A stretch of 64,000 nt of DNA from Octopus vulgaris (Eukaryota): contig OX597839.1 of the NCBI GenBank assembly GCA_951406725.2, positions 36,828,001 to 36,892,000 on the forward strand, given 5' to 3'. The notes beneath the pieces are model-generated. The model did no database searches and was not told where the DNA came from. It saw nothing but the letters and a program-made list of their open reading frames with translations. Both the position numbers and the translations under genes were made by a program. Position 1 is the stretch's first letter; the number at the start of each line of letters is the position of its first letter. This document shows, piece after piece, positions 24,493-57,952 of the stretch.

Positions 24493-24617
24493 TATATATA
24501 TATATATATATATATATACCAGAGTAAACACATAAATGTGAAACAAGGTGGAAAAAAGAGTACTCAAATACCAGTGGTAGAGTAATATGCTTTATTCAAA
24601 GCAGCAGAAAATTCAAC

Positions 24618-24665
24618 AAAACCTGTTACTCTGAGTTTCCCGTTGCCGTTCGTCGGACAGTTTTT
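24618..24665 (-). ncRNA. Minimal type I hammerhead ribozyme fold within a ~170 bp (TA)n-flanked element (24518-24690)
   Basis: Minus RNA: AAAAACUGU CCGACGA ACG-GCAA-CGG GAAA CU-CAG-AG UA|ACAGGUUUU; stems I, II and III present; GUA cleavage triplet. Confidence 0.7.
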
Positions 24666-27600
24666 GCTAGAATCTAGAATATATAAAGTATATATATATA
24701 TATATATATATATATATATGTCCAAGCCATGCTAGCATGGAACACAGAAGTTAAATGATGATGATATATATATATATATATATATATATATATATATATA
24801 GACAGAGACAGATAGACAGACAGACAGACAGTTGGATGAGTGGATAGGTTGACTGAATGATATATTAATAGGTGAATGAATGGTTTGTTAGCCAGCTATA
24901 ATGTTTTTGTTTAGTAGCTTAGTGAGGAGGAAGAAGTTGAGGCCATGATGACAGGTTCTACTGCCAGACTGCTGGGAAAATTGATTTAAGTGAATTACGT
25001 GAATTACTACAGGAAATTCCAGAGTTGATGAAGCCTCTGTGACAAAATGATTGGGCATAGCAAGGGTGAGATTATAGTATGGATGAAGAGAAACTAATGT
25101 GTGTGATGGGCTGGTGTAGACATGGTATGTATCAGCCTTGCTAGAAGAGCAGAGGCTGATGTAGCCATTGTTGGAAAGGCTGAATGAGAAGACAGTATTG
25201 CTGTGAGCAAGAGGTCAAAGTGTGTTGGTGACCAATTCTTTACCAATCAGTCAAATCTAATCTTCAAGCTAAAACAGTTGTCAAGTTTGCACAATAAAGA
25301 TCAGGGACAGTTGTTGCTAAGCCCCAAGTCAACTGTGATTTAACAGACCTCATATTAAATATATTCCACATTGACAATTTTGTCTTCTCTTTTTTTTTTT
25401 TAAGATGGTGTATAAGCAATGTAATGTGCTCTAAGAACACTAAGGTATGATATAGGTTGAATAGCTACAAATAAACTCATTCATTGAACCATTAACAGGA
25501 TTGTCTGTTAATAGAGAGTTATCAAGTAAGAGACTTTAGTTGAAACTCCCAAATAAATTTTCTTAGTGCAGCTTTATTATATTCCCATAAGAAACAGTGA
25601 CTCACCTCACTAGGTCTCAATTGTTTTCAAAGACATCATGATAGAACAATGCTACAAAAACCCTAAAATAAATGGGATGTGTGAAACATTCATAGCCATG
25701 CTTGATTCAGTCAATAGAAGAATGAAAATCTTTCTTCATCTTCTGTCCATTCACAAACAAGGAAATGACTATACTCAATATGCAGGAAAGGAGTAGGTAG
25801 AAATTCCATATAGTGTACTTAGTGTAAACTAATAAGGCAGAAATAAGTGGCATAGTGGCATCACAGCAGACTAACAAAATGTAGACTTCAGGTGCACAGA
25901 GGCAATTAGCATTAAGGTTACATGGGAAATACTTTTTCTCGATGCTTAGAAGGCTGACTGGAAGTAGGTAGTAGCTGTACCCAGGTGATCCCCTTAACAG
26001 TTGCCCTCTTTTGTTGGTCTCCTAGCCCTAAACAAATAGGCCTCATAGAGAAGAGAGGTCTCTTTTATCTTGTGGGGTACAAGCCAACTTCAATACTGCT
26101 GTTACCACAATAAAATCCACCCAGTACACTCTGTAAAGTGGTCAATGTTAGGAAGGATATCTAGCCATAGAAACTTACCAAAACAGAAAATATGAACAAA
26201 AGGTTGTCTCTTGACCCATCTAGAAGTGCATTAATTCAGAGCAGGAGTGAACATGATTACAATGGCTTCAAGAGAAGGACACCAACTATCCCCTCTAATG
26301 ACTTGGCTTTATGATCAGAAATTCCACTGCGTTAAGGCTTGAAAACCTGCCTACAGCTCACTAACTGCATCATCTCCATGCACTTCCCTATTCCAGTCAA
26401 GCAGCATACAACATTCTTCAGTGTGCATGATCCTATTCTTGAAGCAAATTCTGCAGATGAGGAAAAGTGTTATATTGATTTTCACAACCTCATAGAACTT
26501 ACCATCCTTAGGACTTCAACGCTAGAATAGGCCATGATTCCAAAGGAAGTCTAGAAGGAGCATATGATAACCATGTTGTTGGAAACTAATAACAATGAGC
26601 ATTCTCTTTTAGCAAAAAGATAGTTTGAGCACAACCTGGATGCATCTTCATTCCATGCATTGGCAACTGTTAGATTACATTTTGGTATGTTAAAGACACC
26701 CTCAAGAAGTCTTATACACCTAAGTAATATCAAGTTTAAGTGCAATACAGATTAAGATTTTGTCTACTGCAAATTTAGACCCCATTTAGTTGCATGATCA
26801 TATAGATGGAAAAATGACAGGATGTGTGAAGATGCTGGCAAGAGTGGAAAGAAGGATGAAAAAGAGAGAAATGAAGAGAGTTCAGATATAGTGGGAAGGA
26901 AAAGTTGAGATCATGCATGGAAAAATTAATGGAAGAGATTGTTAAAGAATCAACAGAACCACCTTTTCCACTATTTCAACACAACTGCCATAACCACATC
27001 ACCACATCAAATATCAACCACACGTTAAACGATGATGATGATGATGACCACCAAACCTCATTATACCAGCACCAGACCACTATAACCACACTACCAGGTC
27101 ACCACATATCACTACAACACTATCTGCACTAGATTACCACTTCTCTCTTTCTTCCTGAAGTGTGTAATATACTTGTCTCCTCCCTTGCATCTCCACACCG
27201 CTACTATTGATAAAGGAAGGAAGGTTTGAGTGCACAGGTAAGTGCATGGTGAGGGAGGGTGGTAGTGTTATGGGAGAGGTATGATGGTAGAGAAAGAAAG
27301 AAGAAAAAGAAATAGCTGATGAGAGAAAGAGGTGATAGAGTAGAGTGTGGTCAATGGTTGAATAATAACTGTGACTGTCATAACAGTAATTAGTGTTGTG
27401 AGGCTTAACTGAAGTCAGTCTGTCCCTCATCATTACTGTTCAATGCGATGGAATGGAAACACACATACACAGAGGCTAATAACTGTCACCAACAACATCA
27501 GCATACCTTTATACACACCTGACATACTGCACATATCTAACAATATCACCACCTCTACTATACACACCTGATATACTGCACACTGACTGACTGTCACTAT

Positions 27601-28357
27601 ATCACATTAAAGAGTGTGTGTGAGAGAGAGAGAGACACACACACACACACATAACCAGAAACTGACAGATCAGAAGACAAGGTATGATATCTTTTCACAG
27701 GTTATTTAAACCTCCAACACTCCTGTTGATGTCGTTAATGCATCATTTTACACACACACACAAGCCTCCAATGTTTGCCTTAATCACACTACTTTTACTC
27801 ACACCTCACTCTCTGTTCTACTATACTTCTCTTCTATCTCCAAGTCTCTTTTCCTCCTCCTAAATATTTCTCATATCTAACTGCCTCTCTACCTCACTCC
27901 ACTTCGCTCTCTCTCACAGACAATCATCTCTCCCCTCTGTCTTTGATACTATTTTCTCCTTTCTCTCCCTCTCTCTCTCTCACACTAACCCTCCATCTCT
28001 CTCTTACTCACTTTAACACTGCCCCTCACCACCTCAGCATCTCCCCAACTTACCAATCAAACCTGATGCTGGTATCACAGCCAGTCAGACCCAATGGTGA
28101 CATAATCACACCTCTAGCGACAACACAGACACACGCATACATACACAGCGCACAACACTAGCAGCAGACTGCCACCACAACAACACCACCATCCATCCAT
28201 CATCATTACCACCATCATCCTCCGCTGATCACTTCCTTCATCTCTTCTTACCATAAACACAGTTTGCCGCGCTGGAGACTGCTTAGCAGGCATGTTTCTG
28301 CAGAAACATCATTGCTCACTCATTCCTCCCTCCTCCTCCTCCTTCCTCTTATCGCAG

Positions 28358-55595: not shown

Positions 55596-55630
55596 GTTTC
55601 CGACGAAGAGCTACGCTCGAAACGTTAAAC
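55596..55630 (+). ncRNA. Very minimal hammerhead-like motif (Penelope type) within a ~200 bp element (55526-55722)
   Basis: GUUU CCGACGA A GAGC-UAC-GCUC GAAACGUU|AAAC; stem III reduced to palindromic ACGU. Confidence 0.5.
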
Positions 55631-55851
55631 CCTTCTTTCCTGAGTGTCCAATAATACTATATTTGTTCCACGTCCTCGCGTTGTTGTGTTTTTTTTGTGT
55701 TTTCTTGTTTGGATTAACTTTATTTATATATATATATATATATATATATAAATATATAAAATATTATCAGAGACAAAACCACTATTTTGCAAAACAAACA
55801 AGGAAAGACTTAATCAATACATAAAATTTTAATAAATAGTCAAAAAAACCG

Positions 55852-55894
55852 CCACTACAATCGTTTCTTGTCTTGATCGACAATCTTCAGGTGG
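55852..55894 (-). ncRNA. Type I hammerhead ribozyme fold within a ~170 bp element (55750-55920)
   Basis: Minus RNA: CCAC CUGAAGA UUGUC-GAUCAA-GACAA GAAA C-GAUU-G UA|GUGG; canonical CUGANGA/GAAA core, GUA triplet. Confidence 0.8.
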
Positions 55895-57952
55895 ACTTCC
55901 AATAAGTCAGTTTCAAATTATATATATATGTATACACATGCACACATTTATACATACATATATATAAATTATGTGTGTAGATGGACGGACAGGTGGACAA
56001 ACAGACAGACACACACAGAGATGGCAGGCTGGATAAATAATATGAATATATAGGTGGGTGTGCATGTATATACACTTAAGTAGATAAGTATGCATAAATA
56101 TATCTGTAAATATAAATATCATACATACATACATTCACACATGCACAAAGAACATTTCAAGTTCCTGTCTCTCAAAAATACATTTGAAGGCTGTTCAAAA
56201 TCTGTTTGTGTCAAGACAGTGACAAGACAAGGTCGGCTGATATTCATTTGTTGAAAATTCCTGCATGAAATGTATGGTTATATATATATATATATATATA
56301 TATATATATATATGCATGTATGTGTATAGATGTATATATACATGCATATATGTATGTATATATATATATATATACATTCATATATGTGTATATATATACA
56401 TGCATATATGTATATATACATGCATATATGTATATATATATATATATATATATATATAGATGCATATATATATATATATGCATGTATATATGCATGTATA
56501 TATATATATATATATATGCATCTATATATATATATAGGAACTGAAACATGTTATAATGTATTTATAAAAATTAAAAATTGTATAATACAGCAGCATTTTC
56601 GAACTTCATTTTTTACAAATATATATATATATATACATATATGCATGTATATATATATATATATACATATATGCATGTATATGCATGTATATATACATAT
56701 ATGCATGTATATATATATATATATATATACACATATATGAATGTATATATATATATACATATATATATATATATATATATACACATACATATATATGCAT
56801 GTATATATACATATATGCATGTATGTATATATATATATATACATGCATATATATATATATATATGCTTATATATATAAATGCATATATATATATATATAT
56901 ATATGCTTATATATATAAATGCATATATATATATATATATATATAGATATACATATGTAGGCACAGGATTTCTTGAAATGTGTATATATATATATATATA
57001 TATATAAATATTTATATATATAGCGTTGAAATCAAAATCAATGACTGGCATCCGTGCTAGTGGAGTGCTAAGAGTACCATATGAGCGTGATTGTTGCCAA
57101 GGCAACAGGTGGGCCTCCGTGCCAGTGGCACATGACAGTCACCATTCGAGCGTGATTATTACCTGCGTCGCCTTACTAACACTTGTCCTGGTGGGACGTG
57201 AACAAAACATTCGAACGAGGTCATTGCCAGTGCCGCTGGACTGGCTCCTGTGCAGGTGGCACACAAAAAGCACCATTTGAGTGTGGCCATTGCCAATACT
57301 GCCTGACTGGCCTTCGTGCTGGTGGCATGTAAAAGCACCCACTACACTCTCGGAGTGGTTGGCGTTAGGAAGGGCATCCAGCTGCAGAAACTCTGCCATA
57401 TCAGACTGCAATCTGGTGCAGCCATCTGGTTCGCCAGACCTCAGTCAAATCATCCAGCCCATGTCAGCATGGAAAGCAGATATTAAACGATGATGATGAT
57501 ATTTATATCTAGCCAAAGATATATATATATATATATATATGTGTGTGTGTGTTTGTGTGTGTGTAAATATATATATATATATAACGTCATTATCATCATC
57601 ATCGTTTAACATCCGTTTTCTGTGCTAGCATGGCTTGGACGGTTTGACCGGGGTCTGGGAAGCCAGTAATTTGCACCAGGCTCCAGTCTGATCTGGCAGT
57701 GTTTCTACAGCAGGATGCCCATCCTAACGCCAACGACTCTGTGAGTGTAGTGGGTGCTTTTTATGTGAGAAAGCGTGCTGGCAGCGGCCACGATCGGTTA
57801 GTGCTTTTTACATGCCACCGGCACAGAACCCTGTCAGGGCGATGCTGGCATCGGCCACGTTCGGATGGTGCTTTTACATGCCATATATATATATATATGA
57901 ATGTTTATATATATATATATATATATATATTTTTATGTGTTTTTATATATAT

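What the first reader, a model, noticed from the sequence alone, without database searches (positions are those of the whole stretch)
24518..55920. Possible system: several (TA)n-targeting hammerhead mini-retroelements sharing a U4C core variant
Three different 170-200 bp elements in 64 kb each carry one hammerhead fold and each sits between TA microsatellites. Two unrelated ones have CCGACGA instead of CUGANGA. CpG deamination removes CG rather than creating it, so methylation decay does not explain the variant. Inference: this genome may host a large population of ribozyme-bearing non-autonomous elements with an attenuated or conditional core, which standard CUGANGA searches would miss. If intronic, they could cut host pre-mRNA in a strand-biased way. 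I cannot tell whether these families are already catalogued.
Basis: inference. Interest (0 to 1): 0.8.

Follow-up and report, generated by a model that had tools for sequence, protein, structure and literature searches.

The report
Penelope retroelement ends with altered hammerheads
The three short elements are end pieces of Penelope-like jumping genes (shown for two, likely for the third) that sit in TA repeats; many thousands of copies in this genome carry a changed self-cutting RNA core that standard searches miss and that likely cuts slowly, and one family leaves short copies with an intron precisely removed.

Summary
In detail: three hammerhead folds between TA runs, two with C at core position 4. 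They are not a new mini-element system but terminal repeats of Penelope-like elements (PLEs). E1 belongs to a Hydra-clade PLE, E2 to a Neptune-type PLE, E3 likely to a second Hydra family. C4 is family-wide, not private: 76 of 100 listed among 13,376 E2-family matches, including young copies with intact 949-aa frames, and 28 of 100 among 5,229 E1-family matches, whose young intact subfamily is canonical. C4 therefore likely arose twice independently. It is one of several core changes: sister Neptune families (10,564 matches) mostly carry U at position 6. Published descriptors require CUGANGA and miss these. Most likely the core drifts because insertion does not need cleavage (shown in vitro for another PLE), with a hint of weak selection back to U4 (24 C-to-T against 3 G-to-A at one CpG). 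Unexpected extra: E3 carries a precise splice junction lacking a 1,908-nt GT-AG intron, as do 43 of 100 listed family hits, although PLEs are known for keeping introns. No sign that the three are intronic. Cleavage, Repbase and Dfam were not testable.

The parts
24519..24688 (-). E1: 3' end stub of a Hydra-clade PLE, older C4 subfamily; 5'-truncated
   Evidence: 97% match to terminal repeats of L121, which encloses a broken RT/endonuclease frame; 92-95% to repeats of intact 711-aa elements
24623..24660 (-). E1 type I hammerhead: 4-bp stem I, core CCGACGA (C3 at 24656), 2-bp stem II with GCAA loop, self-complementary stem III, cut site after GUA (24627)
   Evidence: same stem I, stem III and triplet as the published Hydra-2_aMil row
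24519..24589 (-). E1 tail: 71 nt that follow the 5' terminal repeat in full-length copies and are present at one end only of many insertions
   Evidence: tails described in PMC8557442
24493..24518 (.). TA run at the 3' end of E1
24689..24718 (.). TA run at the 5' end of E1
55527..55724 (+). E2: terminal-repeat unit of a Neptune-type PLE, older subfamily; 5' end close to the likely start site
   Evidence: 82-90% match to repeats flanking RT frames in L192-L198 and L231, 72% to repeats of intact 949-aa elements L219-L224; 5' ends cluster
55596..55630 (+). E2 minimal hammerhead: stem I GTTT/AAAC, core CCGACGA (C3 at 55600), extra A, 4-bp stem II, CG palindromic stem III, cut site after GUU (55626)
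   Evidence: fits the consensus of PMC4209133 Fig. S3 except at position 4
55505..55526 (.). TA run 5' of E2
55725..55750 (.). TA run shared by the 3' ends of E2 and E3
55751..55918 (-). E3: spliced short copy of the terminal repeat of a second, likely Hydra-clade PLE
   Evidence: 99% identical family with inverted arms and tails; long form L263 and RT fragment in L264
55903..55904 (-). Splice junction in E3: a 1,908-nt GT-AG intron of the long form is absent here, 13 nt before the core
55852..55894 (-). E3 type I hammerhead with canonical core CTGAAGA (C3 at 55890), 5-bp stem II, self-complementary stem III, cut site after GUA (55856)
55919..55928 (.). TA run 5' of E3

Best explanation
E1 and E2 are terminal-repeat copies of a Hydra-clade and a Neptune-type Penelope-like element and E3 likely of a second Hydra family, likely inserted into TA runs by the parents' own enzymes, and their altered hammerhead cores likely spread because insertion would not need fast self-cleavage. 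Shown: parents, copy numbers, TA targets, inverted arms, tails, family-wide C4 and U6 cores, the missing intron in E3. Inferred: the parent's promoter starts RNA inside the terminal repeat; reverse transcription starts inside that RNA at the repeat end or tail (shown for the anole Poseidon element) and runs to the RNA's 5' end, which gives units of fixed short length (E2) or, if the 5' intron was already removed, spliced minis (E3); early stops and fold-back give stubs with inverted arms (E1). Copies span the cut site, so uncut RNA is the template. A master copy with a slower core therefore still spreads; the fold, the C3-G8 pair and G5 stay, so constraint is likely relaxed, not lost.
For: Parents. 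Counts. Intact young Neptune copies carry C4 in both repeats (L220-L223) and intact sister frames carry U6 (L225-L227). Catalytic mutants of a Poseidon hammerhead did not affect insertion in vitro, unprocessed RNA was the main substrate, and reverse transcription started internally at the tail (PMC11167929 passages). Residual constraint: stem I G-C to C-G swap between lineages (one event); position 17 is G in 1 of 111 copies; C3 109 of 111, G5 106 of 111. U4 looks mildly favoured: 24 C4-to-T against 3 G5-to-A and 4 C7-to-T among 100 E2-family matches, and the canonical Hydra subfamily is younger (2.0% against 4.9% within-group distance) and more numerous (72 of 100). Natural U4C keeps a viroid infectious despite lower activity (PMC3088659 passage).
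Against: No cleavage was measured. The youngest intact Neptune lineage keeps C4 and adds a mismatch in stem I, and U6 persists across several families 74-78% alike, which fits selection for low activity or a dead ribozyme just as well. The U4 excess counts copies, not events: a few U4 master copies would give it, and the tree is poorly resolved. Conservation of G8, A9, stem II and GAAA is built into the search pattern. The covariation was reached by 33 of 500 shuffles on 6 rows. The link between E3 and the RT fragment in L264 is by position inside one inverted pair only. Start sites are inferred from copy ends, not from RNA.
Confidence: 0.6

Rival explanations
1. Adaptive detuning: these lineages were selected for slower or protein-dependent ribozymes so that more uncut RNA survives as template, and U4C (twice) and A6U are convergent answers.
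For: C4 in two clades whose proteins are only 22% alike; no Neptune cluster in my sample has a canonical majority core; young intact Neptune copies carry C4 plus a weaker stem I; a PLE hammerhead was protein-assisted.
Against: The most successful Hydra subfamily and all 100 listed E3-family cores keep U4; excess of U4 over neutral CpG decay in the E2 family; T-to-C is a common change, so two cases need no selection.
Confidence: 0.2
2. The variant cores are catalytically dead and the hairpin is kept only as a binding or promoter signal for the element's protein.
For: Single changes in the CUGA turn gave low activity in a mutational scan of another hammerhead (PMC9901934 passage); one copy carries G5A plus A6U; Naiad elements spread without a canonical hammerhead.
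Against: C3, G5 and a non-G position 17 are kept where the pattern did not force them; natural U4C and A6C variants retain low activity.
Confidence: 0.15
3. One reading: independent non-autonomous ribozyme elements sharing one conditional U4C core that cut host pre-mRNA.
For: Short units dominate the older E2 subfamily (10 of 11 sampled E2-type copies start 30-82 nt before the core); thousands of copies exist.
Against: Each maps to the terminal repeat of a longer element; different clades; no exon found near the three; forward and reverse counts are equal genome-wide, which says nothing on introns.
Confidence: 0.05

Closest known systems
Hydra clade of Penelope-like elements (Craig et al. 2021, PMC8557442), including Hydra-1_Obim and Hydra-2_Amil
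   Same: RWK, DKT, CxCx5C linker, C-terminal CxxC and CxH, TA targets, hammerhead near the 3' end with the same stem I and III as Hydra-2_aMil, inverted arms and tails.
   Different: C4 subfamily (all 26 Hydra rows of the published table have ctga); unit about 3.36 kb against under 3 kb; very high copy number with many intact frames; hammerhead and protein differ from Hydra-1_Obim by eye.
Neptune clade PLEs with minimal hammerheads (Cervera and De la Pena 2014, PMC4209133)
   Same: U-rich flank, short stem I, extra base after A9, G10.1-C11.1, CG palindrome for dimer cleavage, mostly solo copies.
   Different: C4 or U6 in the majority of copies; the 44 of 56 alignment rows I saw all have U4 and A6; the core variant reported there is U3-A8.
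Drosophila virilis Penelope 5' intron (PMC2377424, PMC4209133) and PLE intron retention (PMC3846280)
   Same: Intron a few tens of bases after the start site, ending just before the hammerhead.
   Different: Here the intron is 1,908 nt and 43 of 100 listed genomic hits lack it precisely; the passages read describe retention and discuss an antisense template to explain it.
Animal non-LTR retrozymes (bioRxiv 10.64898/2026.07.22.740005)
   Same: Short non-coding hammerhead units derived from PLE terminal repeats.
   Different: Retrozymes are defined by tandem units; these three are single units in TA runs with PLE-type inverted arms and tails in their families.
U4C viroid hammerhead variant and A6C phage variant (PMC3088659)
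   Same: Natural core change with reduced activity that is tolerated.
   Different: Isolated cases there; here lineage-wide in many thousands of genomic copies.

Membership tests
Hydra-clade PLE (E1 parent) | RWK motif and DKT in place of DKG | tested here: met
   RWK at 37, DKT at 113 of the 711-aa protein
Hydra-clade PLE (E1 parent) | CxCx5C linker; CxxC and CxH at the endonuclease end; single frame with C-terminal endonuclease | tested here: met
   562, 667, 695; Pfam itself gave no hit
Hydra-clade PLE (E1 parent) | Insertion into (TA)n | tested here: met
   27 of 29 and 27 of 28 loci
Hydra-clade PLE (E1 parent) | Canonical hammerhead core | tested here: inconclusive
   met in the young subfamily (72 of 100 have U4), not met in E1's own subfamily (28 of 100)
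Hydra-clade PLE (E1 parent) | Placement in an RT phylogeny with reference Hydra elements | not tested
   reference proteins only seen as paper text; compared by eye
Hydra-clade PLE (E3 parent) | Hydra-type RT frame upstream of the repeat | tested here: inconclusive
   48-aa piece 46% identical to the E1 parent protein inside one long inverted pair; no frame in the 4 kb of L263; continuity not shown
Neptune-clade PLE (E2 parent) | GxKF-like motif, DKG, RT core, Cx2-5CxxC linker, C-terminal GIY-YIG domain with Cys/His motif | tested here: met
   GLRF 241, DKG 354, YIDD 596, linker 817, endonuclease from 855; RVT_1 E 0.0018, sister RVT_1 E 1e-7 and weak GIY-YIG
Neptune-clade PLE (E2 parent) | Separation from Nematis and Poseidon by RT phylogeny | not tested
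   assignment rests on the linker motif only
PLE in general | Direct terminal repeats, inverted 5'-truncated arms, one-sided tail | tested here: met
   493-bp identical repeats in L220; inverted arms; tail in 18 of 37 E3 arms
Minimal PLE hammerhead | Short stem I, extra base 9.1, palindromic stem III allowing dimers | tested here: met
Minimal PLE hammerhead | CUGANGA core | tested here: not met
   E1 and E2 have C4; E3 meets it
Minimal PLE hammerhead | Self-cleavage | not testable with these tools
   needs an assay or raw RNA reads
Non-LTR retrozyme | At least two tandem units each with a complete hammerhead | tested here: not met
   single units in the window; tandems seen were of long elements or of variable partial units
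Naiad PLE | N-terminal endonuclease, no canonical hammerhead | tested here: not met
   both sequenced parents have a C-terminal endonuclease and a hammerhead fold

The most novel reading that the evidence does not exclude
Active Penelope-like lineages in this genome have repeatedly retuned their hammerhead under selection (U4C in two clades, A6U in a third lineage) into slow or protein-gated ribozymes present in about twenty thousand copies invisible to published searches, and the spliced mini copies prove that these elements copy processed sense RNA by internal priming, settling how PLEs keep or lose introns.
Probability: 0.2. Interest if true: 0.75.

Novelty: new variant of a known kind. Interest (0 to 1): 0.5.

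Why it matters
The role of the PLE hammerhead is an open question. This genome offers natural matched sets inside single lineages (C4 and U4 Hydra subfamilies; C4, U4 and U6 Neptune forms, with intact frames), so activity and transposition can be compared directly. Hammerhead censuses that demand CUGANGA would miss roughly 10,000 E2-type, 1,500 E1-type and 10,000 sister copies here (extrapolated from the first 100 listed matches). The spliced E3 copies bear on whether PLEs copy sense or antisense RNA, left open in PMC3846280: a precisely spliced copy needs a sense template.

Tried and rejected
Rfam scans found no hammerhead family. Naiad origin, my first guess from the TA target, was rejected once C-terminal endonucleases were found. 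A single shared U4C origin was rejected (different clades). CpG decay as source of C4 was rejected; it acts the other way. CCGATGA 7-mers at 43437, 53822, 53946, 54150 fail the fold descriptor. A microhomology deletion for E3 was rejected: the junction is unique and bounded by GTAAGT and TTTTAG. Expression: no RNA holder listed; contigs of four runs were laid and cannot show ends or cleavage; one contig of organism B matches the C4 stretch without change, and missing rows at position 4 prove nothing. Host gene: 140 of 148 non-repeat frames were scanned; only M13 peptidase exons at 298-9841 and transposon pieces. No full-length E3 parent and no fully intact C4 Hydra frame was obtained. Earlier scan notes: nothing found. 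Lunse et al. 2017, the paper most likely to list PLE core variants, could not be read; Repbase and Dfam are not available.
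Full report
Observation. The three stretches exist where stated: E1 24519-24688 (-), E2 55527-55724 (+), E3 55751-55918 (-), each between TA runs. A relaxed type I hammerhead descriptor finds exactly these three in the window; 5 of 20 shuffles gave one hit and 15 gave none. Rfam has no matching model. The genome is 2.8 Gb in 227 contigs; it looks like an octopus from size and repeats (recalled, not tested).

E1. The 30 best loci are 96-99% alike, share the 3' end, vary at the 5' end and often carry an inverted arm. 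Walking upstream led to L121: inverted arm, repeat, broken RT/endonuclease frame, repeat. A protein search returned 132 scored matches of 14,195 candidates, many with open frames of 727 codons. The 711-aa protein has RWK, DKT, CxCx5C, CxxC and CxH, the features given for the Hydra clade in PMC8557442 (section 11), a clade that targets (TA)n. The E1 fold repeats stem I, stem III and the triplet of Hydra-2_aMil; all 26 Hydra rows of that table have ctga (supplement). In 8 of 8 fetched young loci the repeats are canonical CTGATGA. An exact pattern gives 5,229 matches, control 0; of the first 100 listed, counted by eye, 72 have U4 and 28 C4 (20 CCGATGA, 6 CCGACGA, 2 other). On 50 copies the two forms are separate clades, 2.0% and 4.9% within and 10.5% between, with CCGACGA nested in CCGATGA under a midpoint root. 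The C4 subfamily is older; I saw no fully intact frame for it (one 682-codon frame with one stop).

E2. One copy extended upstream and led to long elements. [quoted passage not shown] It is 22% identical to the E1 parent protein. L220-L223 carry CCGACGA in both repeats, L224 CTGACGA in both. Exact matches: 13,376; first 100: 72 CCGACGA, 1 CCGATGA, 3 CCAACGA, 24 with U4. Sister families, 71% at protein level, with long open frames in the copies fetched, read CTGTYGA, that is A6U. They account for 10,564 matches (23,940 minus); 50 of the 53 listed have U6 and 3 are canonical. Stem I swaps G-C for C-G between the lineages. In a sample taken by position, 10 of 11 E2-type copies start 30-82 nt before the core, 7 of them at 68-82, so most older copies are a fixed short unit. 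Listed matches are the first along contig 1, inverted arms count twice, and exact patterns miss decayed copies.

E3. A young family (99%), 660 exact matches, 100 of 100 listed with CTGA. The long form L263 has no frame in 4 kb but shows that the window's E3 joins a short first exon to the sequence before the core exactly at GTAAGT and TTTTAG, removing 1,908 nt. Of the first 100 of 699 hits, 43 have the spliced junction, 53 the acceptor, 4 neither; the listed inverted pairs more than 1 kb apart are unspliced and those under 0.4 kb spliced, apart from one truncated pair. None of 37 spliced arms matches more than 25 nt of the first exon. A 48-aa Hydra-type RT piece lies inside one long pair, so the parent is likely Hydra; this is the weakest link.

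Mechanism. For the anole Poseidon element, reverse transcription starts inside the RNA at the tail, uncut RNA is the main substrate, hammerhead mutants do not affect insertion in vitro, and the ribozyme needs protein (PMC11167929, passages). Applied here (inference), priming at the end of the 5' repeat and running to the RNA start yields the fixed E2 units and, on spliced RNA, the E3 minis; early fold-back yields E1. As cleavage is not needed for insertion, masters with slower cores can spread. Changes in the CUGA turn lower activity (PMC9901934, passages); natural U4C and A6C variants keep some (PMC3088659, passages and section 8). Constraint seems relaxed, not gone: C3, G5 and non-G at 17 persist, and U4 is in excess over neutral decay at the same CpG (24 to 3, P 5e-5 if copies were independent, which they are not). 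Against this reading, the youngest Neptune lineage keeps C4 with a weaker stem I, and U6 has lasted across several families.

Host context. M13 peptidase exons lie at 298-9841 (+); no exon was found beyond. Nothing shows the three are intronic.

What is known. PLE hammerheads, TA-targeting Hydra elements, tails, inverted arms and an octopus Hydra family are published. The published descriptor starts with cuganga (PMC4209133 supplement file 2; file 1 not searched), and the 44 of 56 rows seen have U4 and A6 (main text parts 1-2 of 4). Intron retention is the described rule (PMC2377424 and PMC3846280, passages). Searches showed no listing of lineage-wide U4C or A6U PLE cores or of spliced genomic PLE minis, but most hits were seen only as listings, Lunse et al. 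2017 was seen as a title only, and Repbase and Dfam were out of reach.

Verdict. New variant of a known kind. The proposed system dissolves into ordinary PLE ends, but lineage-wide core variants in active elements and the spliced minis are real and testable. Interest 0.5.

Noticed in passing
window 298-9841 (+): Four exon-like frames match Peptidase_M13 in profile order; the 3' part of a neprilysin-like gene.
   Followed up: no
L225-L229, L233-L262; genome-wide: Sister Neptune families with A6U core, about 10,500 exact matches; L230 has G5A plus A6U.
   Followed up: partly
window 55640-55660 and Neptune loci: A motif beginning CCTGAGCG about 15-25 nt after the hammerhead recurs in most Neptune copies read; it could pair with the 3' strand of stem II or be a protein site.
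   Followed up: no
window 24666-24672 (-): An acceptor-like TTCTAG ends about 10 nt before the E1 core in nearly all copies listed; no spliced E1 copy was seen.
   Followed up: partly
L020:1319: E2-type copy with a sister-type core CTGTCGA, perhaps a template switch between families.
   Followed up: no
L034, L038: E2 copies at sites without long TA runs show 12-14 bp target duplications (by eye).
   Followed up: no
L109, L175: Two further canonical hammerhead folds seen once each, probably other PLE families.
   Followed up: no
window 41400-64000 and L123: Locally duplicated blocks of SINE-like repeats and TA arrays; a 2.7-kb unit with a LINE fragment (60669-61742) repeats five times to beyond the window end.
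   Followed up: no
window 23199-23675 (+), 31410-31658 (-): LINE zf-RVT fragment and mariner-type HTH fragment.
   Followed up: no
window 24281-24492, 40171-40351, 44943-45328: SINE-like repeats with tRNA-like heads (recognised by eye) share the same TA tracts as the PLE ends.
   Followed up: no
window 53792-54041: 124-bp tandem pair holding CCGATGA 7-mers without a hammerhead fold.
   Followed up: partly
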